Positions 5,178 through 63,506 of a stretch of DNA of 63,506 nt are shown here, piece after piece. A program made the translations under genes and the position numbers. Numbering within the stretch: the first letter of the stretch is position 1; every line of letters starts with the position of its first letter. Under the pieces are notes generated by a model. The model did no database searches. It was not told where the DNA came from and was given only the letters and a program-made list of their open reading frames with translations. The stretch comes from Mustelus asterias. Taxonomy: Eukaryota. The stretch lies in assembly GCF_964213995.1 (NCBI RefSeq), contig NW_027592097.1:1-63506 (forward strand). Reading direction: 5' to 3'.

Positions 5178-8100
5178 GTAAGTGTGGAAGTGGAGATAGT
5201 GAAGGCACGTATTTCACATATCTCAGTCTGATGAACATTTCAGCTTCATACATTCCAAAAATGAATTATTATTTGTATAGAAAATTTGGGGGGGTGGAGG
5301 CGTTGGTCTAGTGGTATTATCGTTAGACTATTAATCCAGAAACTCAGCTAATGTTCTGGGGACCCGAGTTCAAATCCCGCAACAGCAGATGGTGGAATTT
5401 GAATTCAATAAAAAATATCTGGAATTAAGATTCTACTGATGACCATGAAACCATTGCCAATTGTTGGAAAAACCCATCTGGTTCACTAATGTCCTTTAGG
5501 GAAGGAAATTCCTGGTCTGGCCTACATGTGACTCCAGCACCACAGCAATGAGGTTGACTCTACACTGCCCTCCAAGGGCAACTAGGGATGGGCAATAAAT
5601 ACTGGCCAGCCTGTGATGCCCATGTCCCATGAATGAATTTAAAAAAAGATTTATCTATCGATGTTATGTTGATTTTTTTTGAGGCCACACAAATGATTTC
5701 CACCTATCGCCTTGCAGTTCAAAGTCATCCCTAGAATGAGATGTGAAAAGAATTTAATAAAAGTTACTTTTGCCTCCCGAAAACTGATGAGTTTATCCCA
5801 GCTACTAGGCTAAAAAGATGAAATTCCAAAACTGGAGCTCAGCCTGCCTCAAATCCACTTTATCTCTCAGCAGAGGTGGGACAAGGGACTTGGTACAGGT
5901 AACCAATTCTCCTCAGGAAGAGATTGGTTATCTAGAGTCATAGAGATAGAGAGCAGATGGGCCGAATGGTCTTTTTCTGTGTGTTAAAAGCTGGAATGAA
6001 AACAATGCTGGAAATACTCAGCAAATCAGGCAATGTCTGTGGAGAGAAGTCTCACAATACCAGGTTAAAGTCCAACAGGTTTATTTGGTAGCACCATCTT
6101 TTGGGAGCGTTGCTCCTTCTTCAGGTGAGTGAAGAGTTGTGTTCACAAACAGGGCATACATAGACACAGACTCAATTTACAAGATAATGGTTGGAATGCG
6201 AGTCTTTACAGGTAATCAAGTCTTTACAGGTACAGACAATGTGAGTGGAGAGAGGGTTAAGCAAAGGTTAAAGAGGTGTGAATTGTCTCAAGCCGGGGAT
6301 GTCCTTTTCGGACAAAGGTGGAGATTTTTTTCTCTCTGAGGGTCAAGCGATTTTGGAACTCTCTGCTTCAGAAGGCAGTGGAAGCGGGTCACTGAATATT
6401 TTTAAGTCGGAGGTAGATAGCTTCTTGTTAGGTAAGGGAATCAAAGGTTAATGGGGGGCCCAATGGGGGACGTGGAACTCAACACAAACAGAACAACCGT
6501 GATCTTATTGAATGAGCTCAAGGGACCAAATGGCCTACTATTTTGTGTGTTCGTATGTAAAAACATCTGTTTCTATAAACTTGCCCAAGAGAGGAGAAGA
6601 TAGACCCTGGTGTTCATTAAAAAAAAATAAAGAGACAATATACAACTTCTCAAATAACCAAGAAATATAATTTTTCATAGGTTGGTGCCTCAGTGAATGG
6701 TAATCGATTCCACTTTAGGCTGTGGCATGAAAAAGGAAATGAGGATGATGGAGAATGCTTATTTTCCAAGCCTGGTGGCTTTTATACACTGGATGGGTTT
6801 CCAAACTGTGTGATAACCAGTGGTGTGGTGAACTTCTTCATGGCCAGGACAGAAAAGATACTGAGTGTTGGATTCGATCCTCGATTGGCAAGGGTAGCTC
6901 ACTCCGGTAAATGAACCATTCAATTGTCCTGCCCCAATGTTAATGATGCTACTGGATGCTGATATTCAGGTTTTATTCAGATTTGTTAGTCTTCCAGTCT
7001 AGGTAACAATCTTAGGAATCTCAAAGGTACCATGAACTGGGGACAGGATTTCATGAAAAGTTGGGGGCGGTGGTGAACAGGAGAGGTTCAGGCCTGGAAT
7101 TTCCCGCCACTGACTGGCTAATGTGTTTGTTCTTGGCATGGTCCAGAGACCTGGACAACATCGGCATCTCCACATCTTTCACTAAGCCAGGTTGGGTCCA
7201 GAAAGTAAGCTGCCCACAAGCAGCAGGTAGACAATTGAGCCAGTTAAGAACCATATTGAGGCCTCTCTCCTGTACCGACTGGAAGTTTCCAGACAGTAAA
7301 CGGACCCCTACAGTAGCTAAAACACAGTCAGAGAAAGTAAGTGGCTTCCCAGCTGCAGACCAGGATCTAACTCTCTGGATTACTTTTAAGCCACCAGGCT
7401 CCCACCACCACCATCATATCTACACTACTGCCCAATGATGAAAAATGATCAAACCTGCAGCCTCAGCCCACTCTATCGAGGGGCTCCATCCCCCACATTG
7501 TGCTCATTTTTACTTCCATACGGTTTTAAAGTGCTCAGAGCGCCCGCCATATTGAGACACCTCTCTCTCACTTACCTGCAATGATAGTCTCATGGCTGCG
7601 GTCCCTTCTATTGGCCCTTCAGCATCACTCATTGTACTTAACTGGACAGGAAGCACACCCTCTCATCATCAAGTGACCAGTCCTACAAAAATTATTTATT
7701 TATTTTTCATGAGATGTGGGTGTTGCTGGCTAGAAAAAAAGGATAAACCCTGCAAATATAGTTTGATCAGTTTAGCATTTGTGGCGGGGAAACATGTAAG
7801 GACAACAATCTGGGACAAAATTAATTGACATTGAGAAAAGTTTGGTCTAAGAAATGAAAGTCAACACAGAATGGTGCATCGGAGGGGCTCTACTTAGGCT
7901 GAGTTGACTGACCAGGCCGAGCTTGCTTCATTCCCACTCTGCCTCATCCTTGATCACACACAGTGCAACCTCGGCCCCTGATTGGAGGAGATATTGGGGT
8001 CTTGAAAACATTAAGTAGACAAGTCCTCAGGTCTTGATGGGATATACCCCAGAATACTGGGAGAGGCAAGGGAGGAAATTGCTGGGGCCTTGAGAGAAAT

Positions 8101-13550: not shown

Positions 13551-13872
13551 CTGTAAGAAATCTCACAACACCAGGCTAAAGTCCAACAGGTTTATTTGGT
13601 AACCATGAGCTTTCGGAGCGCTACTCCTTCATCAGGTGAGTGCCATGATGTGGAGATGCCAATGCCAGCATCTCCACATCATGGCTACCACCGACACCAC
13701 AAACTGCCGGCTCAAAGTGGAGAGGATCTCCAAGAAGATTGCGCATATCGAGACTCACTTGATGAAGGAGCAGTGCTCCAAAAGCTCATGATACCAAATA
13801 AACCTGTTGGACTTTAACCTGGTGTTGTGAGACTTGTTACTGTGCCCACCCCAGTCCAACGCCGGCATCTCC
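13551..13872. mobile_element. Palindromic Penelope-like family 1 insertion with ORF-start fragment
   Basis: Inverted arms; flanking direct repeat acatccaatttta (13538-13550, 13873-13885); internal ATG at 13681 reads MATTDTTNCRLKVERISKKIAHIET. Confidence 0.75.
13604..13639 (-). ncRNA. Minimal type-I hammerhead ribozyme motif
   Basis: Minus strand: TCAC-CTGATGA-A-GGAGT/AGC/GCTCC-GAAA-GCTC-ATG. Confidence 0.6.
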
Positions 13873-16800
13873 ACATCCAATTTTAATGATTATCTTCTAT
13901 GTGAGATGGCACACTTTTTAATGCTACACAATGGGCACTCAATAGAATGGGAGTAATAATAATATCCACCATTTTTTGACCACTTTTTAACAATTATATG
14001 GAAACATTTAAAAGATTTAATTAGAAGGGAATACTTCTTTTTATATAGCACCTTTCACAAGCTCAGGGTATCTCAGAGCACTTTACGATTCAATATTTTG
14101 AAGTGTAGGTACCATTGTAATGTCGTAAATAGGGCAACTGGTTTAAAGTTAATTTATTAGTGTCACAAGTAGGCTGACATTAACACTGCAATGAAGTTAC
14201 CATGAAAATCCCCTAGTCGCCACACTCTGACACCTGTTTGGGTAGGACTGAGAGAGAAATTAGCATGGCCAATGCACCTAACCAGCACATCTTTCAGACT
14301 GTGGGAGGAAACCGGAACATCCGGAGGAAACCCACGCAGGCACAGGGAGAACGTGCAGATTCCGCACAGACAGTGACCCAAGCCAGGGATTGAACCTGGG
14401 TCCCTGGCGCTGTGAGGCAGCAGTGCTACCCACTGAGCCACCGCGCCGCTCAAAGATTGCCAATGCAATTACAAATTCTTCCACTTCTCCACTCTATCTA
14501 AGTGTGAAACAACAACTTACCTTTTACGTGATGTGATCACTGCTCCAGCCACAAACATGAATAATTGCAGAAAATCAAGTGGGAAACTTATTCCATAGAT
14601 TTATCCTCTGGGAAAAGAAAAACTGCCTAAAATCTAACCTGGCCTTACCCTTGGCACCTGGTTGTGCCCAATCTTTAAAGTAATCTATCAAATAATCTGA
14701 AAAAAATCTTTGTTTCCTTTTTCCCTAAATGCTTTGATGGGTTCCTTTACATACTAGGCACTATTGCAGGTACTATTTCTGTATAGTGTACAAATTGCTG
14801 TTGTGTTTATGGCATTGTGTTTGTCTGGATGGTGTTAAAGCATCATTGAACCATGTCACATTTTCACTGGTTCATTTTGAACCAATCATTACATCCAGAA
14901 CACCAGACTGAAGAATAGCACCAGTAAACTACATGCCATTTCAATTGTATCTGGCTTGGCTAAGGACTGTGCCAAAAGATCTGTAGAGAAGTTGCCTCAA
15001 TTCTAAGTTTCTATTTTGTCCTTCCTTCGTGAGTTGGTAAACTTTAAAAGATATCTTTTCTGCAGCCAGAACTCCTCTCTCGAAACAGGTTCAAGGTAAG
15101 ATTGTTTGCCTTCAGTTGTGTTGGGATGTTCCTCGTAATAAAATTGATTGTAACACAACATTGAAAAATGAAATAAATTTGTGTCCAATTAAAGTGGGTA
15201 TTAAGTCAACAAAAATTCCTGATTTGTTGGGCTCATTCACCATCTGCTTTGTTTTAAGACTGGACAACGTTATTCATTTAATACCTGATTTATAGATATC
15301 CTAATAGAGTTTATGGGGCCAATGGGATCACTAAGCCATGGGCCGGATTTTACCGCCCCGACCGCCATGGGAATCGGAGCGGGTGAGGGGCAGACCACAG
15401 AAAGGTCTGTTGACCTCAGGCAGGATTTTATGGTTTTGGGACGCGTGAGGTCGTAAAATCCTGCCCATGAATCCCAACTTGATCACAGTCATGGAGGAAA
15501 TCTCTGAGATTTATGTGGATTTGATTTACACAGGCGTTGAAACTGCCTGTGATGCTTCCATTTTGTTTTGCTGTAATTTTTTTTTTAAGTTCGAAAGCTA
15601 AATTTCGATTAAGCTTCAGCTTTCTGGGATGCTTCTTAACTTAGACTGACTCCACTTCCAGTGCGGCAGTCCCTCGTCAGCAGTCCTTGGTGACCCTTGG
15701 TGTCCAGGATTCTGCTGAATCAACCTATAGGGACAATGAGTCTCAATGCAGGAAGTTGGAGCAGATCTGGGGCAGTGGGTGGAGGGAAATTTGGGCCGTT
15801 GGGTCTTTGGATGATTCTAGCTACAGCCTCACTTCTTTGATCAGGGTTTGGAATGGGGAAATAGTGTTGCATGTTCAGTTAGTTCATGAAGGATTGGATT
15901 TTCAGTGTTGAGAACGAGTCTCTCTGGTCACAACTTGTCCTGTTAGGTAAGCTAAAATAATAGGATAGTAGAAAAAGAATATCTTCCCAACTTCTCTTAG
16001 ACGTGCTATTAATTATTAGCTCCACCAGCCTCACCCTGGCATTATTTGGCCCGGGAGCGACGTGGCAAGGGAGCATTTTTCTATTTTGCTTTACTGCGTA
16101 TGCGCAATTGAAGGCTTCGATCGGAGCTGCAGGGTTTCGGGCGCGATAAGCTCCGCCCACAGGCTTCTGCAGTGCGATTCAGAATCGCTACTATTTTTTC
16201 AGGCAGGGTGCGAATGGGGGTGCCGGAGAACGGGTCTAAAAGTCGGATCTGAAACACCCAGTTGCAAGTCTGCCCAGCACTTAGAATTAAAATGGTAAAA
16301 TAGGGCCCTGGGTGTCAATTTAACATGGCCAATCCACCTAACCCTCACATCTTTGGAGTGTGGGAAGAAACCGCAGCACCCGGAGGAAACCCACGCAGAC
16401 ACGGGAGAATGTGCAAACTCCACATAGACAGTGACCCGAGGCAGGAGTTGAACCCGGCTCCCTGGCGCTGTGAGGCAACAGTGCTAACCACTGTGCCACC
16501 GTGAAGCCCTCCTTGAGGAAGGAATTTGAATTTTGATTTGAGATCGAAAGGTGCCTGATGGGGAAAGGTTTGTTGTTGGCTTTGCAAAGCTCCTGGATGA
16601 ATGGAGCCAATATGAAAATTGAATGGCGCACAACCCGAAAGAAGCTGGTGAGACTCACAAAGAAATGGGTCTGTGATGCTGTGAGTGCCATAAAGATTTC
16701 ACTTGCTCTATTCAGAAGCACCATTACCAGTCAATAAAGTCCACTTCACGGTGACACAGTCGTTAGCACTGCTGCCTCACAGCACCAGGGACCCAGGTTC

Positions 16801-17253: not shown

Positions 17254-17476
17254 AGCCATGATGTGGAGTTGCCGATGTTGGACTTGGTTGGACACAGTCA
17301 GAAGTCTCACAACACCAGGTTTAAGTCCAACAGGTTTATTTGGAATCACTAGCTTTCAGAGCGCTGGCTGCTCCTTCATCAGTGAATCCATTCACCTGAT
17401 GAAGGAGCAGTGCTCCAAAAGCTCGTGATTCCAAATAAACCTGTTGGACTTTAATTTGGTGTTGTGAGACTTCTTA
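17254..17476. mobile_element. Palindromic Penelope-like family 1 insertion nested in a family 2 palindrome
   Basis: Inverted arms; TSD cagtat(t/c)tgtgct at 17241-17253 and 17477-17489. Confidence 0.75.
17346..17428. ncRNA. Pair of hammerhead motifs (minus-strand core intact; plus-strand copy has GAAA changed to AAAA)
   Basis: Minus: CTGATGA AGGAGC...GCTCT GAAA GCTA GTGA. Plus: TCAC CTGATGA AGGAGCAGTGCTCC AAAA GCTC GTGA. Confidence 0.55.
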
Positions 17477-43339: not shown

Positions 43340-46300
43340 CTGTCGTATATATAAAAAAAGTTAAGACTTCCAGGAACAGATTTACAAATTCAGCGCAACA
43401 TTTTAAATTATTTTTAAAAAATCTATGTGATTTTAAATGCTGGTGATTAAAATCTTTCCATTTCATGCACCCACTATCAACGAGTATCACAAAGTCTGGT
43501 GAAGCAGTTATGCAGAATGAAATGGCCTCTATTCTTGTTCAATTTCAGTTGAAGTTTATTTATTAGTGTCACAAGTAGTCTTACATTAACACTACAACGA
43601 AGTTACTGTGAAAATCCCCTCGTCGCCACACTCCGACGCCTTTTCGGATACACTGAGGGAGAATTTAGCATGGCCAATGTACCTAACCAGCAGAGTCTTT
43701 CAGACTGTGGGAGGAAACCGGAGCACCCAGAGGAAACCCACGCAGACATGGGGAGAACATGCAGACTCCGCACAGGCAGTGAACCAAGCCGGGAATCGAA
43801 CTGTGAAGCAGCAGAGCTAACCACTGTCCTACTGTGCTAATTGGCAATGAGTGCAAAATTTACAGTTTTATACTGGAGCTGCATATAGATTGCCTGAACA
43901 CATTTCATAGAGGATCCTAACAGCCTGCAGAACTTTATCCCACCTGTCCAGATTGCAGTCAAATCCAGGTCACGGTATTTAATACTATACCACCCAAGCC
44001 CCATAATTCCAAAGTTTCGAAATATAAGCAACACTTTTCATTAAATATGCACAGTTATATAATTACTGTATGCAACTAAAAAACAAAGATCAGTAAAAGC
44101 TAAATACTTACATAATCCCTCAGAATTTGCACTGCTTTCAATTTTAGAATGGTCACTTGGAAAAGTACAGTCCCAGCCATCAATTATACAATGGTCATCC
44201 TCATCTCAATAAAAAGACACAAAATTAATTTCCACTTCACCTCAAGGTTGTCCATAACTTAAACAAGGACATGAAAATACAATAATTAAAATTAAACCTT
44301 GCATTACCTACAAGTTAAGACAAGTTTGAAGATGCAATATACAGTTCTCCGAGGTCAGTTATCCACGGAAGCTATGGCTATCGACAGGACAACCCCACCA
44401 AGTAATAACCCTGCCTGTCAAAACAGAAGTGCTCCAGTTTGATATATTTCAACAGAGCCTGGACAATCACTTTGATTTTATTATCTACAAACATCTGATG
44501 AAGAAGCTACATAATTCATCAAGGCAATCGTGTAAGATTTAATTTTTGAATGCGTTACAAGCTATCCTGCCTCATCAAAATGGTCTACATACTTCATGGA
44601 GTAAGAAGCGTGCATCCGCCTCTGTAGACAACATTGTCTTTTACTCTCTCAACCAATTCTCAAGTAATGCATCTTCTATGGCTAAGAGGGCACGCTACAA
44701 CAATCAGTCAGCTTTCAGCTCATTGCGAATGCTATTCTTAGCTTTTGCTAAAGTGTTTAAGACAGCAGTCCAATGGAGAATTTCCATTAAGTTTCGAGTT
44801 GGCATCTTTCCCGCATGCAGAAAAAATAGTGAAGAGTAGCTCTGGAACGTGGAAAATCAGACTTGTGCCTTTCCACTTCACATCACTAAATCATAGAATC
44901 CTACAGTGCAGAAAGAGGCCATTCGGCCCATTGAGTCTGCACCGATCACAATTCCACCTAGGCCCTATTCCCATGCATTCACCCGAGCTAGTCCTCCTGA
45001 TACTAAGGGGCAATTTAGCATGGCCAATCCACCTAACCTGCACAACTTTGGATTGTGGGAGGAAACTGGAGCACGTGGAGGAAACCCACGCAGACATGGG
45101 GAGAATGTGCAAACTCCACACAGTCACCCAAGCAGGGAATCGAACCCAGGTCCCTGGCGCTGTGAGGCAGCAGTGCTAACCACTGTGCCACCCTTATAAG
45201 TGACACCTTGCATTTTGAGATCCAGTATGTGAGTTCTGATAAGACGTCATCGCCCTGATACGTTAACTGTGTCACTCTCTCCAGAGTAATTGTCTGACCT
45301 GCTGAGAGCTTCCGGCATTTTCTATTCTTAGTTCACATTTCCAGCATTTGTGGTATTTCGCTTTTATCTTTTGTACTTTTGTGTTTTTAGCTTTTTTGAA
45401 GATGCTAAATTTTGTGCTCGCAGTTAGGAGTGCTAAGTGTTGGGAAATACAAACTGTCTATTGTTTGATTGCAACAAGCTTCATCAAAGGTCAAGGAAAG
45501 CTCTCCCTGCGGTGCCCCAAAAATGTCTTATCCCAATTTCAGAAAACTCCCCACTGCTCCAGTGTGACATTTCTACTTCCATTACAACCATTCTAGATAT
45601 GACAGTTGACACGGTGGCACAGTAGTTAGCACTGCTGCCTGACAGCACCAGGGACCCGGGTTCAATTCCCACCTTGGATGATTGTGTGGAGTTTGCACAT
45701 TCTCCCCTTGTTTTGTGTGGGTTTCCTCCGGGTGCTCCGGTTTCCTTCCACAGTCCAAACATGTGCAGGTTAGGTGGACTGATCATGTGTGGGGGCTATG
45801 GAGATAGGATGGGAGAAAGGAACTGAGTAAGATACTCTGTTAGAGAGAGTCGGTGCAGGCTCGATGGGCTGAATGGCCTCCTTCTGCACTGGAGGAATTC
45901 TATGATTCTATAACTGCACAATTCAAAACTGTTAATGACATTTCACACTGGATTGAAACTGCTCAACTTTATTTTAAGAACATAAGAACATTAAGAACTA
46001 GGAGCAGGAGTAGCCCATCTGGCCCCTCGAGCCTGCTCTGCCATTCAACATGATCATGGCTGATCTTTTCGTGGACTCAGCTCCACTTACCCACCTGCTC
46101 ACCATACCCCTTAATTCCTTTACTGTTCAAAAATGTATCTATCCTTGCCTTAAAAACATTCAATGAGGTAGCCTCAAATGCTTCACTGGACAGGGAATTC
46201 CACAGATTCACAACCCTTTGTGTGAAGAAGTTCCTCCTCATATATCGGACTCTTATAGTCCATTAGTCTCGGCTGAATTCAAATCCATCCCAGACTGTCC

Positions 46301-52300: not shown

Positions 52301-55300
52301 GTAATGAATTGCAGGGAGCAGGAGGCGGTGCTCATAATGAAGACAGAATCAGATGGGGATGGGACAAAAACTAGAGGGGGACTTGGGTTCCGGATTAGGG
52401 CACTGGGGAAGCGTCAAAGCCAACTGAATGAATGGTCTCAATCTTAGTGAGAGTGAAGTCCATGAACACCTCGGGCCTGTTGAAGGCGAAGGTGGAGAAT
52501 CAAAGAGGTTTACTGAGAATGTTACTAATGAAAGTTATCTTTGCTCTCCAGGGTAGTCCTGACATACACAATTTATAAATACCGACATTATTTCAGTTTG
52601 TTGGTTACAGTACCTATTATTAATAGAGATGTCTCCTTGCAAGCCTGATTCCTTATGGACAAATTTAACCACGGGTAGCCTGGCAGTAGTGACAGCTTGT
52701 ACTTTGTGTACACCTGGAACACATTTCTGCAACACAGTCGCTACAAGTTCAAGCACCTCAGCCGTTGTTGATGTTTCTAGGTCTATGTCAGACAAGATTG
52801 AATCCTCAGATTGAGTTTCAGACTTAGTATCCTGTTTTGTTCCATTAACCTCCTGTAATTGTACAAAGCATGTTATTGGGATGAGCGCATTACTGTTCTT
52901 AACGTCACCTTTTGTTTCTCATCCTTTCAACAAACTCGACAATTTTTAAAAACCACCGTGGATGGGATTTAGGGTGCATTTACCAGAACTTTACAGAGCT
53001 ACAAAGCAGACGTTGAAGTGGAAATCCAGAGACAGGGGGTGGGATTTTACGATCTCCCGCGGGAAAGATCGTAAAATCCCACCCAAGACAAACGGAGATT
53101 TCCGTTCTGCGGTAAAGTTCCGGCCTGGGACTCCAGAGCAAAGTGGAATGAATTCTGTCTTCTCAAAATCCACTTCACATCTAAATTAAGGTTACTCCAA
53201 GAGTTTCCAACAGAAAAAAGGCTTACAGTAGATAAGATTATACAGCTGGCACTGAGGAAATCTGTTGTTAAATAACAATGACAAAATCTGTCAATAAACG
53301 TGGATGCATTTGCCTCTTTACACCATTCAGAGGCTATTCTGGACCTGTTCTGGTAAAGCCAGGTAACTGTCTAAGACTGAAAAATGATTGTGCATCATTT
53401 CAAATCATCCTCATTCATCCAGTTCTAATTTAGGAAAACAGTACTAGAGTGGGCAGTCAAGTATCGTCAATTCCAAATATTCTCCCCAAAGGAAAAACTA
53501 CAAACTGACCACATTGCATCAAAAAATAATTTATGGTAGATGTTTGAGCCTGCTTTCCAACATCTTTCTTGAAATTTCTTTAATGCAAGTTCGAATTGAA
53601 ATGTTTGATATTCTTTTGGGGGTTCTCAGCTCTTTAAAACATGACACAGTATGTAAATGCAGACATATATACGTTATAATCTTCTGATATTTTTGAATGT
53701 TGTGCAGATGCTTTCCCAAGGGAAGAAATGTAACCCGTACTTCAGTTTCAGCCGCGCTTCTAGCATTAGCCTGAAAAGTCTTGGTGCGTTCAAGATCCAG
53801 AAACAAATCCATGTCGCAACCATGAATATCGAACGCATTCACTGATGATCCAAATGGCAAGATCCTGCAACCTAAAAACAAGACAGCATTAAGTCACATG
53901 TCAATATGGCCCCATGTTCCAACTAGCAGTAAGTTAAAAGAGAAGTTAAAAGACAAGATTGAATCCTCAGATTGAGTTTCAAAACTTAAAGCAAAAGCAT
54001 TCCCTTTCTGAAATAGGTTCCATCAATATATAATCATGATGTGGAGATGCCGGCGTTGGGACTGAGGTGGGCACAGTAAGAAGTCTCACAGCACCAGGTT
54101 AAAGTCCAACAGGTTTATTTGGTATTGCGAGCTTTCGGAGCGCTGCTCCTTCATCAGGTGAGTCCTGATGAAGGAGCAGTGCTCCGAAAGCTCGTGATAC
54201 CAAATTATAGGGTTATAGGGATCAGGCGGGTAAGTGGAACTGATCCACTTCAGATCAGCCATGATCTTATTGAATGGCAGGGCAGGCTCGAGGGGCTAGA
54301 TGGCCTACTCCTGCTCCTATTTCTTATGTTCTTACGTTCTTAAACCTGCTGGACTTTAACCTAGTGTTGTGAGACTTCATACAATATATAATAAATAGGG
54401 CAGGAATTTTCCAGTCTCATGCACGGTGGGAACTTTCGGTGCAGAAATGGAAAATTTGGAGGCAACCAAAAGTTCACTGGCCGCAGAGGAGATCAGAGAA
54501 TTCCACCGAGAAGAACCATAGCGCAGGGGGTTACCTACTAGCCTTTCAATTCCAACACTTAGTTTTGCAAGCACCCCAGCTGAATTGGATGAAAGTCTTC
54601 CCTGCCTATTGATTATAAGATTTCAATGAGAAACAAAATTGCTTATGAGCCCACGGTGTAATTACTGCCACTAATCAGGCACAATGTTGGGGCCCCTGAG
54701 TACAGGAAATTCTTGTGCAGGAGCAGGTGATCATCTAAGATTGAGGCTATGGTTAATGACAGTGAACCAGTGCTTCCCAACCTTTTATACATCACAGCGC
54801 ACCTTTATAACATTAAAAAACTTTGAGGCACACTCCCTGTTTTCTCTAACTGAATTCAATTTGGTTTATTATTGTCACATGTATTAGTATACAGTGAAAA
54901 GTATTGTTTCTTGCGCTATACAGGCAAAGCATACCGTTCGTAGAGAAGGAGAGAGTGCAGAATATAGTGTTTAGGGTGTAGAGAAAGATCAACTTAATAT
55001 AAGGTAGGTCCATTCAAAGCAGGGAAGAAGCTGTTCTTGAGTCTATTGCTACGTGACCTCAGACTTTTGTATCTTTTTCCCCGATGGAAGAAGGTGGAAG
55101 AGAGTATGTCCAGGGTGCGTGGGGTCCTTAATTATTACGCTGGCTGCTTTTCCGAGGCAGCGGGAAGTGTAGACAGAGTCAATGGATGGGGAGCTAGTTT
55201 GCGTGATGGATGGGCTTCATTCACGACCCTTTGTGGTTTCTTGCGGTCTTGGGCAGAGCAGGAGCCATACCAAGCTGTGATACAACCAGAAAGAATGCTT

Positions 55301-58300
55301 TCTATGGTGCATCTGTTAAAGTTGGTGAGAGTCGTATCTATGTCCTGCCCCTATCTATGTCCTGCTACGGCACACTGGTTGGGAACCACTGCAGCAGATG
55401 GAGCTTTGGGCATCGGCACTGGGTGCAGCGAGTGCTTGATGCTGATACCAGGTGCTCAAAGTGGGGAAAATGTTTAATTTCTCAGCGCTAATATTTAAAA
55501 TGATGAGCACAAAACTCAAAAATAGAAAATCTACTGAGCAGCATTTTACTAAAATTGTTAGTTTAAGTGAAAGTAGTCCACAACCTTAACAAGTTTGTCT
55601 ACTGGAAAATTGATATTGCAACAATATCCCAATGGCACAAAAGACATTGAGAGATTTTTTTGTTATTCTTAACATACATTTTGAACAGTGGGCCCTACTG
55701 TTAATATTGGTCCATTTCGTATCTACAGTGTAACAGAACTGGTAAAAATCAACCAATAACATATTACGTTATACATATAAAGGTATAAAGTATATAATTT
55801 TATAAAGTTATATAAACTAAGACCACTTACTTGGGAAAAATTCTAAGAAGACCTCCTGTAAAAGTGACACAATCAGCTTCCTGAGCATTTTCTCACTGTC
55901 TGTCAGCTCAAACAACCGTAACAACTGCTTCATTTGTTCATCCACCTGTCACATAATAAAATACTGTTATTGAACAAGAGAGGTCATCAAAAATGTTACT
56001 TTAATGTACAAAACCAAATGCTTTGATCCTTCGTGATGGGTGAACAATATGTTTTGCATGAGCAGTTGAAGAAAGAATAGAGTAGGTACTGAAGTTGTAT
56101 TTGCACCACCCCTCATATGGTTATGCAGGCAAGTTCAATTGGATTCATCATATAGAACATAGAACAGTACAGCACAGAACAGGCCCTTCGGCCCACGATG
56201 TTGTGCCGAGCTTTATCTGAAATCTGTTCTGGGTTGATGCCAGAGACAGGTTAGCCCTTATTGACATGAGGCATCTACATTTCCAGCTAAGAAGGGATTT
56301 AAAATGGAGTGGGAACTACAATAAAGCATTCAACTTAGTATAATTTCTCTCCAATGGTCCTTTTTCTAAACAAAACAATTTTAATTGTAGGGTACCCAAG
56401 AATCCCAATATCAACTCACTAATTCTGCAGGCATGCTAGTGAAGCGCAAGACAAATAGATGCACAACAGCTGCTCCATATCCCTGAAAATTGTTCTCTGA
56501 CAACTTTACTCCCAATCTAGAAAGTAGTTGCTAAGGTACACTTTTGAAAGCTGACTCTTGCTTTCTCTTATGATAATGAAAGCATGACTCACTTCTTTTT
56601 GTCTCAGCCTACATCACAAGAGTTCATTCGACATGGCTATCCGATTTCTTTGCATTTTCTCCAATGTACCGGTGAACAGTAATAAATAACATTTCATTAA
56701 AGAGGCATCAGCTAACTTACCTGTTTGTATTAAGATTGAAGTACTTTAATTAAAGTAAACTGCTTACTTAACTTTTGGAAAATGTACCATTCCCTCATAT
56801 AATTATACAGAAAGCAGCAAAGCAAAATTTACAACATTTATATTCCCAAGTCATCACCAAACTCACCGACGGAAGGGAAGGAATGCTGCTCTTGGCGGGC
56901 ACAGGCAATGTTACAATGAATTCTATTCTTCACATTATAGCTACAGATGTCACTGAACAGCAAAACAAAAGTATTTTGTTTGAACAACATCGTGATGGTA
57001 TTTAAAACAAACTGATTATGGGCAACACAGTGGCACAATGGTTAGCACTGCTGCCTCATAGCGCCAGGGACCCAGGTTCAATTCCGGCCACGGGTCACTG
57101 TCTGTGTGGAGTTTGCACATTCTCCCCATGTCTGCGTGGGTTTTCTCCTGTTTCCTCCCACAGTCCAAAGATGTGCAGGTTAGGCTGATTGGCCATGCTA
57201 AACTGATGCTAGTGTCAGGGGGATTAGCAGGGCAAATATGTGGGGTTACGGGAATAGAGCCTGGGTGGAATTGTGGTCGGTGCAGATTGAATGGGCCGAA
57301 TGGCCTCCTTCTGCACTGTAGGGATTCTATTCTGTTCTATGATTAAAAGATTTGGTTGCATAAACCACGGACAGACTTGTCAGTTCCGACGTATGATGTT
57401 TAGATACGTAGTTTCCAATTACAAAGGAACATGGTTTGAAATCAAGTGAATCTGATGGCAAGGTGTTCACAGCTCAGAGATAACAATCACTCATCATTCC
57501 TTTATATAAATGTCACTCTCAGAAAAATGATCAAAACTCTCAGACAAATAATCTAAATCTATATGCAGCATCACACCACAATAGCATTTACAGATTCACG
57601 AACATGGTCATCATCTAGTTTCCTGGCAGAAGTGCTGCAGTTGATCAGAATAGTAAGAAGTCTCACAACACCAGGTTAAAGTCCAACAGGCTTATTTGGT
57701 AGCACAAGCTTTCGGAGTGTCGCTCCATCTTCAGGTGAAGAAGGAGCGACACTCCAAAAGCTTGTGCTACCAAATAAACCTGTTGGACTTTAACCTGGTG
57801 TGGTGAGACTTCTTACTGTGCTTACCCCAGTCCAACGCCGGCATCTCCACATCATGTTGATCAGAACACCAGAGGAAATTCCTGGAGGACGATTTACACA
57901 ACTTTTTTTTTAGGGGGCTGTAGATTAACCTTCAAAACCTCCTTTAAAAATGCATTTTCCTCCCCACAAACAAGTCAGCATTTAGGCCACCCACTCTGAA
58001 GCCTTCGCTATTCGTAGATGAACAAGGGTATCGACTGTGACTTGCCTTGCAAATTATCTTCCACCCCCGAGCCTTCTTATGGCTTAGATGCAGGGAAAGA
58101 ATGATGGGAAAAATGTAGAAGGTTGGGGTGGAGGGGGGGGGAGAGGTTTTACATTAAAGCGCTCCATCACTACATGCGCCGCATCACTACATGTCAAAAA
58201 TCATGTTCTAATTACCTGGTAGCTAATCAACAAGGTGAAGTACTTACATCAACTGCTTGACAGAGAACTTGTGTCAGCTCTTCAAAATCAATCAACTGTT

Positions 58301-61300
58301 TTTTTCCAGGGTCCTGCTTCTTCTTTGGAATATATTTGAACTCCTTAGTCTCTTTGCGTTTCACTCGTAGTTTTTGACCATTCATACAGTGTTGTGCGAT
58401 AGACAGCACTTTTTCCACATCCTCAGTACTCTCCATTTCTATAATTGCATATATACCCTGCAACCATACACAAAACTAATAAATTACACAAAGCTTTAAT
58501 GAATAAAAAGTGGTGTTACGGTAACCTTACATGGAAACCGTGAATAAGTTCCACTCAAATCAGTGAATTAGTTCACTTGGTCTAATTTCTAATCAATCAC
58601 AATTATCGTGTCTACGTGGGTTTCCTCTGGGTGCTCTGGTTTCCTCCCACAGTCCAAAGATGTGCGGGTTAGGTTGATTGGCCATGCTAAAAAAAAAATT
58701 GCCCTTCGTGTCCTGAGATGCGTAGGTTAGAGGGATTAGTGGGTAAATATGTAGGGATATGGGGGTAGGGCCTGGGTGGGATTGTGGTCGGTGCAGACTC
58801 GATGGGCTGAATGGCCTCTTTCTGTACTGTAGGGTTTCTATGGTTCTTTCTATGATTATCTTAAATTGCCAACTATCACGTCATAAAGTTTATTTATTAG
58901 TGTCACAAGTAGGCTTACATTAACACTGCAATGAAGGTATTGTGAAAATCCCCACACTGAAAATCGCCACACTCCGGCGCCTGTTCGGGTACACTGAGGG
59001 AGAATTTAGCATGGTCAATAAACCTAACCAGCGCGTCTTTCAGACTGTGGGAGGAAACCGCAGCACCCGGAGGAAACGCAGGCAGACACGGGGAGAACAT
59101 ACAGACTCTGCACAGACAGTGACTCAATCCGGGAATTGAACCCGGATCCCTGGCGCTGTGAGGCAGCAGCGCTAGCCACTGTGCCGCCCCTCATCTGGTG
59201 GATCAAAACAAAGGAAGGTTATTAATAAAGGAATTCAGGGTCTGTCTAGTCTGCAGCAGCAGGTATAAGTACGAACTGTGAATCAAGAAAGACATCGTTC
59301 ATCTGTATGCTTAACCATTTACTAAATGGGTTTCCAGTCTCTGAGATTGCCCAGTTGTCGCCTTGAATGGGCATTTATCACTTCAACTTTGCTGCCATCT
59401 GACTGGTACACATTCATAAATTTAACTTCCTCCCAAAACAGACCCAGGGCTGTTCTGTGGCATCATTGCAACAGAGAGCTGTGGCCAGCTACTGTCCCAA
59501 GATCAATCAACAGTACAGTTGGGGGGACTCTCAGGAGTTGGGGAAAGAGACAGGAGTAGAGGCGCAGGGAGGTGAAAAAGAGGATGAGAGGTCAGGGAAA
59601 GGGGTCAGGTGTGGAGAGAGAAATCGGATGGGAAGGTGAATGGGGAGGGGAGGAGAGCACGAGACTGAGGAACAAGGTGCATCTGCAGGCTAGCATTTCC
59701 CGGTGAAAAAGGAGCAGCAACATAATGACCAGGAGCAGCGTCCAGTTGGCAGCAGTTGGTTAAGGGGTGAGTGAAATCTAGTGGGTAAACAATGAAAGAC
59801 TGTTTCCATCAGAGGATCCATGCAGAACATGGGAGTGGAGGCCAAAGACTCTCGAGGACCAGCCAAGAGACAAGCAAGGTTCTTGCTTGATGGGCTGTTA
59901 GACCACACAATGTTTAACCACTAATGGCTTTGAGTTGAGACTAGAACATTTTTAAAAACAGAACAGGATGTTTGAAAATGAGGAGTTGAAGATGATCTTA
60001 AGGAAATCGGCTTACAGGAGAGGGCACTAGTACCAGCACAGGCACTGAAGGAAAAGGATCTCCTCTAATGCTGGAATTTCTATCATTCTCAGTTGTATGA
60101 ACCCCAGAGCAGTTCAGAAATGTTGGTGCTCAGCTGGGTTTAGGAGCTCCCCCATGAGAATGTTCCAAACTAAAGGCACACTGCCCATAGTGCGGTCTCT
60201 TGGTTTTGACATGTAAAGTCCAAGTACAAGTTGTCTTCAGAGTTGTCGCCTTCTTGGAGTCCAAACCAGAATCCAAGGAGATAAGGAGAAAGATAAAAAC
60301 TGTCACTGACTAAGGAGCTGGACCACACCTCATTGAATCTAGGCAGATTCAACTGTGTTTTGGCGTGAATATCAGTGGGTTATGTATGTGAGGTGTTAGG
60401 GAATTATAAATTATTACTATTACTACCAGTTCCATAAAGACTATTAGTTAGTTCTTGTACATTGAGAAACAGTATTGTTAGTTCCCAGCGTAGGTTTGAT
60501 GAGTTAATAATGGTCATTGGTGGAATTAAAGCTCTTCCAGCCTCTAGTTATCCTTCTGTGAATCCCTTGCCTACCAACAGTTTCCCTATCTCACATGCTT
60601 ACCAGTAAACCCCACTCCCAACCCATTCTTGGGACTTCTCATGACAGCTGCTGCAGCAAAATCACAAGCAAAAATACTCAACCCAAATGTGAGGAGACCA
60701 ATGCAATAACGTATGCAAATATCACAGTATCAGGGAGGTCAACTGGCCAAAAGGTCAAGTGCTTAAAGCTCAAGAATGTCTCTGAGGTTGGTCATCCTGC
60801 TCAGTACATTAATCAGCTGAAGCATCAGAGAATCAGAGACCGAGTTTTGTTTACTGATCGCTCTAAACTATAGGTAGGCAAGAGATTCACAGAAGAGTAA
60901 CCAGAGGCTGGAAGAGCTTTGATTCCACTAGTAACCATTATTAACTCACCAAATCTACGCTGGGAACTAACAATGCTGTTTCTCAATATACAAACAATAG
61001 CCAAGTCATCCAATTAGATAGTCAGTTTCCCAAAGGTAGGGGAGTCTAAAACGAGAGGGCATAGGTTTAAGGTGAGAGGGGAGAGATACAAAATGGTGCA
61101 GAGAGGCAATTTTTTCCACACAGAGGGTGTTGAGTGTCTGGAACAAGGTAATAGTAGAGGCGGGTACAATTTTGTCTTTTAAAAAGCATTTAGACAGTTA
61201 CATGGGTACGATGGGTATAGAGGGATATGGGCCAAATGCGGGCAATTGGGACTAGCTTAGGGTTTTAAAAAAAAGAGCGGCCTGGACAAGTTGGGCTGAA

Positions 61301-62544
61301 GGGCCTGTTTCCATGCTATAAACCTCTATGACTCTGTAATTAGTTTGATTCATTTGCAGCCCTGAACAAGGCATTGAGCATTTCAGTGTAATTTCTGGAT
61401 GTGTTTGCTATTCTTCTTCAGTTCTCTGCCTGAAGGTAGGTTCAACCCAGAGCGCTGCGACCACCACCATGGGAAGGGCGAGGAAGTGAAACCACACCAG
61501 GCGGAATGGGGATCAAGCCCCTTGCTGTTGGCACCTATCTAACCCTCACCAGCCATCCATTCAACTGAGCCAAGCTGTCCCCAAGAAGTTTGCATTGCCA
61601 TGGCGTCATGGCATGGCATGCACTTTTACATGCATAATATAGTCCAGAGCAACGAATCGTGATGGTCAAGGCTTCAATTTTCTTTCCATCATATGGCTGA
61701 TCAGGAATCTCTCCCACTCTTACCGCCTGACATGTGTGTGCGTATTGAAAGGATCTTGCATGTTGATACTCAACCTGTTTGAGCGCGTTATGAACGCACC
61801 TTACTTGGCCATCAAGTCCTGCAGTGGGATGGGGCGGCACGATGGCACAGTGGTTAGCACTGCTGACTCACAGCGCCAGGGATCCGGGTTCAATTCCTGG
61901 CTTGGGGCACTGTCTGTGTGGAGTCTGCACGTTCCTCCGGATGCTCCGATTTCCTCCCAGTCTGAAAGACGTGCTGGTTCGGTGCATTGAGCCGAACATG
62001 CGCCGGAGTGTGGCGACTAGGGGAATTTCACAGTAACTTCATTACAGTGTTAATGTAAGCCTTACTTGTGGCTAATAAATAAACTTCAACTTTAAAAAAA
62101 CCTTCAGCTTCCGGTTCAGAGGCAGGGACGTTATCTGTTGCATCACTAGACCTCCACTGTTTGCTATTAGATGCATTGAGCCTCTAATAGCATTATGTAA
62201 TTCGAGCTCACTCTAGTGGCAGGACACTGTTATTGGCACTTGGCAATTTACTTCAAAAATTCCAATGCACTATTCTGTCTCCAAATCTTTAATCTGTTCC
62301 AGTCTTCCTAGTTAACTTAGGATCAGAGTGAATTTATCTGGCATTTGACTTACTTTGTCTTTGTCCATTATCACATTTGTCACTGTGCCAAAGGTCTGAA
62401 AGTAATCAGTGATCTCCAGATTGGATGTGCCTTTGTGAAAACCACTCACAAACAGGCTCTTCTCTTGCTGGGATTTCCTGGCAGTTCTCACACTTAGAAG
62501 TTTTTGATGTTTCTTTCCTTTAAGGTGATCATTTAAGGTGGGAC
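42264..62544 (-). CDS. TUT1: TUT1 / Star-PAP (speckle-targeted PIP5K1A-regulated poly(A) polymerase, U6 snRNA TUTase); 9 exons in the window, exon 1 outside
   Basis: Exons 62544-62354, 58457-58248, 55945-55831, 53871-53741, 52852-52614, 50574-50465, 47102-46980, 44204-44112 and 43339-42264 splice in frame. They encode the zinc-finger tail (HLKGKKH), an RRM (SLFVSGF...[15 protein letters not shown]), the nucleotidyltransferase motif [28 protein letters not shown], the PAP-associated [10 protein letters not shown], and a C-terminal KA1-like region. Confidence 0.95.
44112..44204 (-). CDS. TUT1: TUT1 exon
   Basis: (D)[30 protein letters not shown]; GAG acceptor, gtaagt donor. Confidence 0.88.
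45977..46240 (-). mobile_element. CR1 3' end
   Basis: (aagaacat)n tail and [11 protein letters not shown]-like sequence on minus. Similar pieces at about 100-580, 6297-6560, 30285-30460 and 47511-47880. Confidence 0.75.
46980..47102 (-). CDS. TUT1: TUT1 exon
   Basis: [33 protein letters not shown]... Confidence 0.92.
48395..49790 (-). mobile_element. Old degenerate CR1 LINE
   Basis: RLEKLESFS...KGHKFK...WNAL remnants. Confidence 0.6.
50051..50388 (+). mobile_element. CR1 3' fragment
   Basis: MKGIDRV...TRGH...[13 protein letters not shown]; ttgttct tail. Confidence 0.85.
50465..50574 (-). CDS. TUT1: TUT1 exon
   Basis: [12 protein letters not shown]...[16 protein letters not shown]|gtaag. 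Confidence 0.92.
51080..52500 (-). mobile_element. Degenerate L2-like LINE, interrupted by a MITE at about 51527-51683
   Basis: Purine-rich plus strand with RT-like remnants (YADDTQ-like reading at about 51780-51805 on minus). Confidence 0.5.
52614..52852 (-). CDS. TUT1: TUT1 exon (palm, third catalytic Asp)
   Basis: ...[21 protein letters not shown]...QGDISINNR; AG/GT ends. Confidence 0.92.
53741..53871 (-). CDS. TUT1: TUT1 exon (catalytic GSS...DxD)
   Basis: [26 protein letters not shown]...ETE|gtacgg. Confidence 0.93.
54125..54161 (-). ncRNA. Minimal type-I hammerhead ribozyme motif
   Basis: Minus strand: TCAC-CTGATGA-A-GGAGC/AGC/GCTCC-GAAA-GCTC-GCA. Confidence 0.65.
54161..54197 (+). 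ncRNA. Minimal type-I hammerhead ribozyme motif
   Basis: CTGATGA-A-GGAGC/AGT/GCTCC-GAAA-GCTC; core intact, helix I weak. Confidence 0.65.
54860..55335 (-). mobile_element. Rex1/Babar LINE 3' end
   Basis: Highly similar to 30915-31280 and extends to a 3' terminus ...tgtgacaataataaacc. Confidence 0.8.
55831..55945 (-). CDS. TUT1: TUT1 exon
   Basis: cag|[38 protein letters not shown]|gtaagt; not in the ORF track, read by hand. Confidence 0.9.
57651..57855. mobile_element. Palindromic Penelope-like family 1 insertion
   Basis: Near-perfect hairpin 57652-57817; TSD gttgatcagaa at 57640-57650 and 57856-57866. Confidence 0.78.
57703..57738 (-). ncRNA. Minimal type-I hammerhead ribozyme motif
   Basis: Minus strand: TCAC-CTGAAGA-T-GGAG/CGACA/CTCC-GAAA-GCTT-GTG; helix I CAC/GTG. 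Confidence 0.65.
58248..58457 (-). CDS. TUT1: TUT1 exon (RRM)
   Basis: cag|GIYAIIEM...[12 protein letters not shown]...CQAVD|gtaagt. Confidence 0.92.
60455..60993. repeat. Long inverted repeat (arms about 130 bp, 60455-60582 and 60865-60993); probable old DNA transposon or MITE
   Basis: The arms are clearly reverse-complementary by eye, with scattered mismatches. Confidence 0.75.
61022..61335 (+). mobile_element. CR1 3' fragment
   Basis: Closely similar to 19855-20165. Confidence 0.8.
62354..62544 (-). CDS. TUT1: TUT1 exon (zinc-finger end and RRM start)
   Basis: [16 protein letters not shown]...SLFVSGF...MDKDK|gtaagt. Confidence 0.93.
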
Positions 62545-63223: not shown

Positions 63224-63506
63224 ACCCAATATCCCGGTTGAGGCTGTCCTCATGTCTGCGGAACCTGGCTATCAGTTAGCCATCTGATAACCAGGTTCAG
63301 CACACATGAGGACGGACTCAACCGGGATATTGGGTTCATGTCACACTATCTGTAACCCCTACAACCTGCCTGGATGTGCAAAATCTCACTAGCTGTCCTG
63401 TCTGGAGACAATACACATCTCTTTAACCTGTGCTTAATGCTCCCTCCACTCACATTGTCTGTACCTTTAAGATTTGATTAGCTGTAATGACTCACATTCC
63501 AATCAT
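63224..63506 (+). mobile_element. Penelope-like family 1, 3' ORF end (GIY-YIG tail) with inverted 5' segment; runs off the window
   Basis: 63284-63355 reads LITRFSTHEDGLNRDIGFMSHYL*, with the GLN motif typical of PLE endonuclease ends; 63224-63275 is an inverted copy of 63284-63335. Confidence 0.75.

What the first reader, a model, noticed from the sequence alone, without database searches (positions are those of the whole stretch)
54035..54381. Palindromic mini-retroelements carrying back-to-back hammerhead ribozymes
Seen: four 200-350 bp insertions (13551-13872, 17254-17476, 54035-54381, 57651-57855), each an inverted repeat of the same arm with its own 11-13 bp flanking direct repeat. The arms contain CTGA(T/A)GA, a GGAG(C)/(G)CTCC stem, GAAA and GCT(C/T/A), often between CAC and GTG. 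Established: this is the minimal type-I hammerhead found in Penelope-like elements, where helix III shrinks to a palindromic tetramer (here AGCU) and cleavage is thought to need dimerisation. Inference: these are separate insertions of a ribozyme-bearing unit. They may be a non-autonomous, retrozyme-like family, or a stereotyped inverted-truncation product of PLE integration. Arm junctions differ between copies, which favours the second reading. The 54 kb copy has intact cores on both strands, so it could cleave whichever strand is transcribed.
Basis: partly seen in the sequence, partly recalled or inferred. Interest (0 to 1): 0.85.

Follow-up and report, generated by a model that had tools for sequence, protein, structure and literature searches.

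The report
Truncated palindromic Penelope-like retrotransposon insertions
These are short, mostly decayed scraps of a known shark-type retrotransposon, inserted as head-to-head pairs; their ribozymes are probably dead, but their fixed end points record how the element copies itself.

Summary
The four palindromic insertions are real, at the stated coordinates, with 11-14 bp target-site duplications. They are not a retrozyme family. Each is two extremely 5'-truncated copies of the terminal repeat (pLTR) of a shark Neptune-type Penelope-like element (PLE), joined head to head. The 13.5 kb copy carries that element's first 24 codons, and a copy at 63.3 kb carries its GIY-YIG C-terminus. In 4 of 4 copies one arm has the ~38-nt PLE 'tail' and the other lacks it, as published for PLEs. 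Opposite-strand minimal hammerheads 100-700 bp apart were reported in 2014. The claim that the 54 kb copy cleaves either strand fails: helix I is 1 bp on both strands, the antisense arm buries the core (45-48 kcal/mol), and no same-strand partner exists for dimerisation. Only 1 of 9 arms is a complete minimal hammerhead. What I did not find in print: 5 of 8 arms stop 6 nt upstream of the ribozyme core. This suggests run-off cDNAs primed from both target strands (inferred). Also, 3 of 6 insertions abut a second hammerhead-bearing repeat. Verdict: new member of a known kind.

The parts
54035..54381 (.). Palindromic PLE insertion 'C54' (head-to-head pLTR pair plus a nested repeat), in a TUT1 intron about 163 nt upstream of a splice acceptor at 53872
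   Evidence: host exons
54024..54034 (+). Left target-site duplication of C54 (11 bp; right copy 54382-54392)
54035..54163 (-). C54 long arm: starts 6 nt 5' of hammerhead C3, ends at +3 of the ORF ATG (tail included)
54126..54160 (-). C54 minus-strand minimal hammerhead: core intact, helix II 5 bp, helix I only 1 bp
54162..54196 (+). C54 plus-strand minimal hammerhead: core intact, 5' strand of helix I lost at the junction (1 bp)
54164..54381 (+). C54 short arm (no tail; ends 38 nt before the ATG position), interrupted by the nested repeat
54206..54341 (+). Nested 136-nt fragment of another repeat (LINE 3' end; the CR1-like label is recalled, not tested), no TSD
   Evidence: 8 other matches in the window, best 86% to 45973-46116
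13551..13872 (.). Palindromic insertion 'A13'; 13-bp TSD 13538-13550/13873-13885, with 5 nt shared between TSD and element end
13551..13641 (-). A13 short arm, 5' end at -6 (to -7), preceded on the same strand by an 18-19-nt tail/ATG piece (13642-13660)
13660..13752 (+). Tail piece plus ORF start (ATG at 13681, 24 codons) of the Neptune-type element
13753..13877 (+). A13 long arm, 5' end at -6, tail to -1; hammerhead dead (C3U, G12A)
17254..17475 (.). Palindromic insertion 'B17': long arm 17254-17387 (-), CC spacer, short arm 17390-17475 (+); both 5' ends at -6; 14-bp TSD (1 mismatch); sits in the centre of a palindromic family-B repeat
57651..57855 (.). Palindromic insertion 'D57': short arm (-) and long arm (+) joined through a 3-nt overlap; 11-bp TSD; in a TUT1 intron
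57703..57737 (-). The only complete minimal hammerhead of 9 arms (helix I 3 bp, helix II 4 bp, cleavage triplet CUU); buried in the hairpin in context
6045..6295 (-). Longer single arm 'E6' of the same family: about 165 nt of 3' UTR, decayed hammerhead, tail-less end (-41)
63284..63506 (+). 'F63': last 23 codons of the PLE ORF (GIY-YIG C-terminus, stop at 63353-63355) and 3' UTR shared with E6 (87% over 106 nt); runs off the window
63225..63275 (-). Inverted 5' partner of F63, ending at the ORF C-terminus rather than at the tail boundary

Best explanation
What it is (shown; about 0.93): four independent, decaying insertions of a chondrichthyan Neptune-type EN+ Penelope-like element. Each is reduced to two 5'-truncated pLTR copies joined head to head. 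The hammerhead is a passenger from the parent pLTR and is sequestered or broken in these copies. How it formed (inferred; about 0.55): the GIY-YIG/RT protein nicks both target strands 11-14 bp apart, giving the TSD. Both 3'-OH ends prime reverse transcription on element RNA, one at the outer start site (-1 to +11 of the ATG, with tail) and one at the inner site (-41 to -35, without tail). Many cDNAs run to a fixed template boundary 6-7 nt 5' of the hammerhead core, most simply the RNA 5' end (a start site inside the pLTR). That yields arms of about 85 and about 125 nt, comparable to LTR strong-stop DNA. The two cDNA 3' ends are then joined directly, through 1-3 nt of microhomology, or after a jump to another RNA position (13.5 kb copy). 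The template was not hammerhead-cleaved, because the core lies 5' of the cut site and was copied. Present-day effect: a long intronic dsRNA hairpin, not a ribozyme.
For: Family link: the 13681 peptide matches the N-terminus of shark PLE ORFs (27 of 43 identical to P0003; P0014 and P0019 named Heptranchias). The 63284 peptide matches their C-termini (18 of 23 to P0020; 9 hits at E<=0.001, of which 7 carry the motif and 2 are repetitive chance hits). P0015 (881 aa) spans an N-terminus of this type, DKG, RT (PF00078), a CX3-4CXXC linker, a GIY-YIG-type core and the same C-terminus. One long and one short arm in 4 of 4 copies; the 5 short ends fall at -41 to -35 and the 4 long ends at -1 to +11. 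This matches the published optional 30-40-nt tail (PMC8557442 passages; PMC3846280 passages). In vitro, the anole PLE nicks and extends both target strands, starts RT at two internal sites bounding the tail, and uses uncleaved RNA (PMC11167929 main text). 5 of 8 inner ends at -6/-7 (329 of 200000 simulations even if ends were uniform over only 31 nt). Both halves of A13 break at that same point and jump to different ORF positions. Decay: 16 of 54 CpG cells changed against 33 of 648 others; G12 lost in 4 of 9 arms; 0 compensatory changes.
Against: Only 8 arms from one window; no shark genome could be searched, and the -6 clustering was noticed after the fact. Counting the two longer copies, the two extra A13 pieces and the lone tail match, 5 of 13 family 5' ends are at -6. 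F63's inverted arm ends at the ORF C-terminus, not at an RT start site, which fits fold-back better. Arms within a copy are more alike (mean 0.083) than between copies (0.125), which fold-back also predicts. In D. virilis Penelope the start site lies well upstream of the hammerhead (an intron begins 46 bp after it and ends at helix I), so a start site at -6 is not the known arrangement. The extra C after -6 is clear in 2 junctions and ambiguous in 2. The in vitro work is on a Poseidon element, whose hammerhead and start sites lie differently relative to the ATG. Non-CpG core positions are not less conserved than the downstream arm (2 of 90 vs 12 of 378), so the copies are too young to exclude weak selection.
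Confidence: 0.55

Rival explanations
1. Same element, but the palindrome forms by fold-back (self-priming). One cDNA is primed at the tail start site, stops near the hammerhead's 5' side, snaps back and copies itself; the second arm is resolved about 38 nt short of the first junction, leaving the tail at one end only.
For: Arkhipova 2013 interprets PLE head-to-head junction palindromes as self-priming (PMC3846280 passages), and Craig 2021 ascribes the tail to EN-mediated resolution. The D57 centre uses a natural 3-bp palindrome and C54 could prime through CC/GG. F63 has a 50-nt inverted arm ending away from any tail boundary. Arms share private variants: D57 has 6 shared non-consensus sites, 3 not seen in any other arm.
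Against: The B17 centre has both arms complete to -6 with only CC between them, so there is no pairing to prime a snap-back. A13's two halves carry different upstream pieces yet both break at -6. The unpaired long copy E6 also ends at the inner boundary. The anole protein extends both strands and starts at both tail boundaries in vitro.
Confidence: 0.33
2. A non-autonomous palindromic mini-element family (retrozyme- or SINE-like) that is itself transcribed and re-mobilised in trans by the PLE protein.
For: Four similar-sized units in 63.5 kb, each with a TSD. pLTR sequences suffice for mobilisation in trans in a rotifer example. Animal non-LTR retrozymes derive from pLTRs (bioRxiv 10.64898/2026.07.22.740005).
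Against: All four centres differ. D57 groups with the long copy E6 by 3 shared variants, not with the other palindromes. No tandem units, which define non-LTR retrozymes. The hairpin would hide the hammerhead.
Confidence: 0.08
3. The back-to-back hammerheads are functional strand-independent RNA cleavage devices, for example in TUT1 pre-mRNA.
For: Core letters are intact in both C54 arms, and C54 and D57 lie in TUT1 introns. PLE hammerheads can be protein-assisted.
Against: Helix I is 1 bp in both C54 arms and only 1 of 9 arms is complete. P(helix II) is 0.0000 in all 8 strand/element cases and the opening penalty is 26-48 kcal/mol, also co-transcriptionally. A transcript holds one sense hammerhead only, and single minimal motifs showed no detectable cleavage (PMC4209133 passage).
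Confidence: 0.03

Closest known systems
EN+ Penelope-like elements of the Neptune type (Neptune/Nematis linker Zn-finger); named relatives in Heptranchias perlo, Scyliorhinus torazame and Chiloscyllium punctatum predicted proteins
   Same: ORF start and end match; pLTR with hammerhead; head-to-head inverted 5'-truncated partner; tail at one end; TSD; partial tandem in A13.
   Different: These copies are cut down to two arms of 85-125 nt with almost no ORF. The tail ends at the ATG and the hammerhead lies wholly upstream of it, unlike the anole Poseidon.
Poseidon_Ac (PAc) of Anolis carolinensis (PMC11167929, main text read)
   Same: Two RT start sites bounding a tail; both strands nicked and extended; hammerhead cleavage not needed for insertion.
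   Different: Poseidon clade; start sites 111-118 nt into the ORF and the hammerhead overlaps the ATG; a fixed 5' run-off point is not described in the parts read.
[quoted passage not shown]
   Same: CUGANGA/GAAA core, extra nucleotide before helix II, G10.1-C11.1 pair, short helix I, palindromic 15.2-16.2; dual motifs 100-700 bp apart on opposite strands ascribed to truncated PLEs.
   Different: Helix II is 5 bp here against 7-8 bp in the Schistosoma families; the word 'shark' does not occur in the paper's main text; insertion-level anatomy of the opposite-strand pairs is not given in the parts read.
Adineta vaga Penelope copies with inverted pLTRs (PMC3846280, passages read)
   Same: Head-to-head inverted pLTRs, junction palindromes, optional 31-bp tail, TSDs of 8-10 bp.
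   Different: Those flank ORFs or captured DNA; here the inverted pair is the whole insertion; TSDs are 11-14 bp.
Animal non-LTR retrozymes (bioRxiv 10.64898/2026.07.22.740005, part 1 of 5 and passages read)
   Same: Small, non-coding, pLTR-derived, with a type I hammerhead.
   Different: Retrozymes are head-to-tail tandems with a hammerhead in each unit on one strand; these are head-to-head with one per strand, buried in a hairpin.

Membership tests
EN+ Penelope-like element | Linked to a single ORF with PLE-type RT and C-terminal GIY-YIG endonuclease | tested here: met
   Window ORF start (13681) and ORF end (63284) match relatives with PF00078, DKG, YIDD and GIY-YIG-type motifs. PF01541 scored only E=0.0017, below cut-off, on P0011. 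The two window pieces are tied together by the shared UTR with E6; no full ORF is in the window.
EN+ Penelope-like element | pLTR bearing a hammerhead, 3' UTR upstream, ORF start downstream | tested here: met
   E6 joins the 3' UTR to the hammerhead arm; A13 joins the tail to the ATG and ORF
EN+ Penelope-like element | Inverted 5'-truncated partner and 30-40-nt tail at one end only | tested here: met
   4 of 4 palindromes; ends at -41..-35 versus -1..+11
EN+ Penelope-like element | Target-site duplication of variable length | tested here: met
   11, 11, 13 and 14 bp; none identified for E6; F63 runs off the window
Neptune clade | CX2-5CXXC Zn-finger-like linker between RT and EN (shared with Nematis, absent in Penelope/Poseidon) | tested here: met
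   Present in 4 of 4 relatives checked, P0015, P0020, P0024 and P0025; definition. Tested on relatives, not on window sequence.
Neptune clade | Placement in an RT phylogeny (Neptune versus Nematis) | not tested
   No reference PLE set was available; 'Neptune-type' rests on the linker motif and on Neptune being reported in vertebrates
Minimal type I hammerhead | Core CUGANGA and GAAA, U16.1-H17, palindromic tetramer, helix II with G10.1-C11.1 | tested here: met
   5 of 9 arms; 1 hit in 200 control windows; helix II forms in isolated arms, P 0.64-0.995
Minimal type I hammerhead | Helix I of about 4-5 bp closing the core | tested here: not met
   For the 54 kb copy: 1 bp on each strand. At least 3 bp together with an intact core in 1 of 9 arms; up to 4 bp in the family pattern.
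Minimal type I hammerhead | Covariation supporting the helices | tested here: inconclusive
   0 of 9 pairs with a two-sided change among 8 closely related arms (C54 right arm and family B not in that alignment). Family B shows different helix I, helix II and tetramer letters in the same layout, by eye.
Minimal type I hammerhead | Rfam hammerhead family match | tested here: not met
   None among 7 matches at E<=1
Minimal type I hammerhead | Self-cleavage as a dimer | not testable with these tools
   Needs a bench assay; homodimer folding did not give the hammerhead dimer as the minimum-energy state for the 3 arms tried
Non-LTR retrozyme | Head-to-tail tandem units, each with a complete hammerhead on the same strand | tested here: not met
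   Arms are inverted, one hammerhead per strand; definition
Non-LTR retrozyme | Circular RNA intermediate; copies descend from a common unit | tested here: inconclusive
   RNA not testable; the four centres differ and D57 groups with E6, which argues against a common unit

The most novel reading that the evidence does not exclude
Neptune-type PLEs make 'strong-stop'-like cDNAs. The RNA begins 6-7 nt 5' of the hammerhead, RT starts at the two tail boundaries only 90-130 nt from the RNA's 5' end, and both nicked target strands are primed, so the shortest insertions are paired run-off products. Shark genomes would then hold a very large in vivo record of both priming events and of the RNA 5' end in single 200-bp units, making the unresolved PLE integration cycle (two primings versus self-priming) countable. 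In addition, this family may preferentially hit, or template-switch with, a second hammerhead-bearing family at one site (3 of 6 insertions).
Probability: 0.35. Interest if true: 0.6.

Novelty: new member of a known kind. Interest (0 to 1): 0.3.

Why it matters
As an object it is ordinary for a PLE-rich vertebrate genome: inverted truncated pLTR pairs with a one-sided tail and opposite-strand minimal hammerheads are published. It does not add a new ribozyme, retrozyme class or gene switch. Its value is as evidence on mechanism. How PLEs make pLTRs, inversions and tails is described as undefined in PMC8557442 and only partly reconstituted in PMC11167929. These minimal copies show both outer ends, the TSD and the joint within about 200 bp. 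If the -6 boundary holds genome-wide, it would locate the template's 5' end and separate two-priming from fold-back models. A side effect worth noting: such insertions put long dsRNA hairpins into host introns, here two in TUT1.

Tried and rejected
Rfam at E<=1: no hammerhead family; the miRNA-family matches (mir-1597, MIR5048, mir-2188) are far below their gathering scores and reflect the palindromes. Pfam on the two short window peptides: nothing. PDB sequence search with the full-length relative P0015: 0 hits at E<=0.01. A protein search with a reading frame crossing the 17 kb palindrome centre, meant to find the same junction in other sharks: 8 candidates, none at E<=1, so junctions in other genomes remain unchecked. 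Covariation count: no two-sided changes. A sense-strand intron ending at -6, as in D. virilis where the intron ends at helix I: rejected, because E6 shows no AG at that place. Template processed by hammerhead cleavage: rejected, because 9 of 9 arms extend 5' across the cut site into the core. MITE/DNA transposon: rejected, because the arms are unequal, TSD length varies and there is a PLE ORF link. Literature searches that turned up no description of these shark units or of a fixed 5' run-off point: (listings only; open-licence PMC and bioRxiv only). Repbase/Dfam entries and subscription papers (Arkhipova 2006; Evgen'ev and Arkhipova 2005) could not be seen and may well describe this family. 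Supplements of PMC4209133 and PMC11167929 were not opened and may bear on novelty. No eukaryotic genome collection was available; the bacterial/archaeal scan was not used, and the viral and metagenome collections stayed unchecked.
Full report
Setting. The window is repeat-rich animal DNA. It carries exons of TUT1/Star-PAP on the minus strand, matched to solved human structures at 62315-62560, 58230-58475, 55820-55948 and 42267-43538, with palm-domain exons at 53534-53893 and 52538-52918. The 54 kb and 57.6 kb insertions are therefore intronic in TUT1; the 13.5 and 17.3 kb copies lie 3' of the gene. Every relative of the element with an organism name came from a shark (12 of 19 hits named; Heptranchias, Scyliorhinus, Chiloscyllium), so the host is probably a shark (inference).

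Observation. Their flanking repeats are 13, 14 (one mismatch), 11 and 11 bp; an exact repeat of 11 bp or more arose in 9 of 5000 random pairs. Each insertion folds into a long hairpin far below shuffled controls. A descriptor for core, helix II and palindromic tetramer hit 5 sites, all in these arms, against 1 hit in 200 Markov controls. Rfam gave no hammerhead family among 7 matches. The geometry is head to head: the 5' sides of the two hammerheads meet at the centre. The arms are unequal. 136 nt of the 54 kb copy is a nested unrelated repeat (54206-54341; the CR1-like label is recalled). Two more family members exist, a longer single arm at 6045-6295 and a copy at 63225-63506 that runs off the window.

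Identity. The centre of the 13.5 kb copy contains an ATG directly after the long-arm sequence, followed by 24 codons. This peptide found one relative (27 of 43 identical), and that relative found 19 longer proteins. The 37-residue frame at 63242-63352 found 9 proteins among 1.84 billion; 7 carry the same C-terminal motif and 2 are repetitive chance hits. The longest relative, P0015 (881 aa), has this type of N-terminus, DKG, an RT with YIDD (PF00078), a CX3-4CXXC linker, a GIY-YIG-type core and the same C-terminus. The linker marks Neptune/Nematis and is absent from Penelope/Poseidon (PMC8557442 passages); no tree was built. The sequence after the stop codon at 63355 is 87% identical over 106 nt to the region upstream of the hammerhead in the 6 kb copy. 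The element therefore reads ORF end, 3' UTR, hammerhead, about 50 nt, tail, ATG, which is a pLTR. A Chiloscyllium gene model (P0021) also reads through an inverted tail-plus-hammerhead arm into RT sequence, weak evidence that the inversion occurs in other sharks.

Outer ends. Measured from the ATG, the five short ends align to -35, -35, -38, -37 and -41, and the four long ends to -1, +11, +3 and +3; these figures include bases shared with the TSD. Each of the four palindromes has one of each. [quoted passage not shown] It was also described in rotifer Penelopes, with head-to-head junctions and 8-10-bp TSDs (PMC3846280 passages). The purified anole element nicks and extends both target strands, starts RT at two internal sites that bound the tail, and inserts equally well with a dead hammerhead (PMC11167929, parts 1-2 of 4). 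Dual minimal hammerheads 100-700 bp apart on opposite strands, ascribed to truncated PLEs, are reported in PMC4209133 (section 5). The architecture is thus known.

Inner ends. Five of eight arms begin 6-7 nt 5' of C3 (both A13 arms, both B17 arms allowing a 1-nt deletion in one, and the C54 long arm). The other three begin at -4, -1 and +2, at junctions with short overlaps. Five of eight in a 2-nt window arose in 329 of 200000 simulations over a 31-nt range and 0 of 200000 over 166 nt. The pattern was noticed after the fact, and 5 other family 5' ends in the window lie elsewhere. In A13 both halves break at this point and continue in different pieces: tail to +5 on one strand, tail to about +72 on the other. 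An extra C follows the boundary on the cDNA strand in B17 and apparently in A13-right, where the window has Glu and 0 of 5 relatives do; C54 and A13-left are compatible but ambiguous. That RTs add C opposite a cap is recalled, not tested. The simplest reading is a template 5' end there. Against this, the D. virilis start site is further upstream (PMC2377424 abstract and passages).

Mechanism. Shown: PLE identity, TSDs, bimodal outer ends, clustered inner ends, template copied across the hammerhead cut site. Taken from the anole work: two nicks, two primings, two start sites. Inferred: run-off to the RNA 5' end and joining of the two cDNA ends (about 0.55). The main rival is fold-back of one cDNA with resolution 38 nt short (about 0.33). 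It is favoured by the 63.2 kb inversion ending at the ORF C-terminus and by arms sharing private variants (within-copy 0.083 vs between-copy 0.125). It is disfavoured by the B17 and A13 centres. A re-mobilised mini-family is unlikely (about 0.08): the four centres differ, D57 shares three variants with the long 6 kb copy, and retrozymes are defined as same-strand tandems (bioRxiv 10.64898/2026.07.22.740005).

Ribozyme status. Core letters are intact in 5 of 9 arms, but only the 57734 minus-strand arm also has a helix I of 3 bp or more; both 54 kb arms have 1 bp. G12 sits in a CpG and is lost in 4 of 9 arms. CpG cells differ from the majority in 16 of 54 cases against 33 of 648 elsewhere, and no pair shows a two-sided change. 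Non-CpG core sites are no less conserved than the rest (2 of 90 vs 12 of 378), so selection is not excluded by divergence alone. In context P(helix II) is 0.0000 on both strands of all four elements and opening the core costs 26-48 kcal/mol. Because the antisense arm is transcribed first, the block exists as the core emerges, whereas isolated arms form helix II (P 0.64-0.995). Single minimal motifs did not cleave in published tests, and a transcript here has one sense motif. The two-way cleavage idea is very unlikely (about 0.03); these are computed equilibria, not assays.

A second family. Another repeat with the same hammerhead layout but different helix letters and an ACGU-type tetramer occurs as decayed copies at 12866, 38768 and 45232, and as shorter arms elsewhere. 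Around 17.2-17.5 kb it is itself head to head with one longer arm. Three of six family-A insertions (6045, 17254, 63225) abut it at nearly the same site, although it covers 916 of 63506 nt (binomial 6e-5, after the fact). Whether this is targeting or chimeric cDNA could not be settled, and its PLE identity was not tested at the protein level.

Verdict. Real, correctly spotted, and a new instance of a known kind: minimal head-to-head insertions of a shark Neptune-type PLE with passenger, mostly dead hammerheads. I found no description of the fixed inner boundary (listings), or in passages of PMC6431247 and PMC8969392. Repbase, subscription papers and supplements were not seen. Interest 0.3; 0.6 if the run-off model holds genome-wide.

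Noticed in passing
window 12866-12990 (-), 38768-38975 (-), 45232-45366 (+), 5990-6047, 17166-17249, 17492-17533, 22016-22071, 63171-63224: Second repeat family ('B') with a decayed minimal-hammerhead layout (ACGU-type tetramer, GUU/AAC-type helix I); at 17.2-17.5 kb it is itself head to head with one longer arm. Probably another PLE; no protein link tested.
   Followed up: partly
window 6045, 17254, 63225: 3 of 6 family-A insertions abut family B at nearly the same site though B covers 1.4% of the window: targeting of B or chimeric cDNA, unexplained.
   Followed up: partly
window 42267-62560 (-): Host gene TUT1/Star-PAP; C54 lies about 163 nt upstream of the acceptor at 53872, and C54 and D57 would form long dsRNA hairpins in its pre-mRNA.
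   Followed up: partly
window 13633-13641, 54155-54163, 6122-6130 (+): The antisense of the arm reads CAG|GTGAGT, a consensus 5' splice donor (consensus recalled), ending exactly at the -6 boundary; possible cryptic donor or coincidence.
   Followed up: no
window 6296-6560: The 5' end of the 6 kb arm runs straight into a LINE-like 3' fragment in the opposite orientation; no TSD found for the composite.
   Followed up: partly
window 7156-7176 (+): Lone 21-nt match to the end of the tail (19 of 21), with no hammerhead seen upstream; a related family or chance.
   Followed up: no
window 60444-60583 and 60865-61004: 140-nt inverted arms (86% complementary) 281 nt apart, unrelated to the PLE arm.
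   Followed up: no
window 53037-53084: 48-nt palindrome in a TUT1 intron.
   Followed up: no
window 4794-4816 (-): Isolated weak hammerhead-like motif lacking G12; context viewed, no family evident.
   Followed up: partly
window-wide (e.g. 4480-4680, 13042-13240, 16747-16930, 57026-57340): Very abundant ~300-400-nt SINE-like repeat with a tRNA-like head in both orientations (more than 20 copies), and decayed LINE RT/endonuclease frames at 31303-33214 (-).
   Followed up: no
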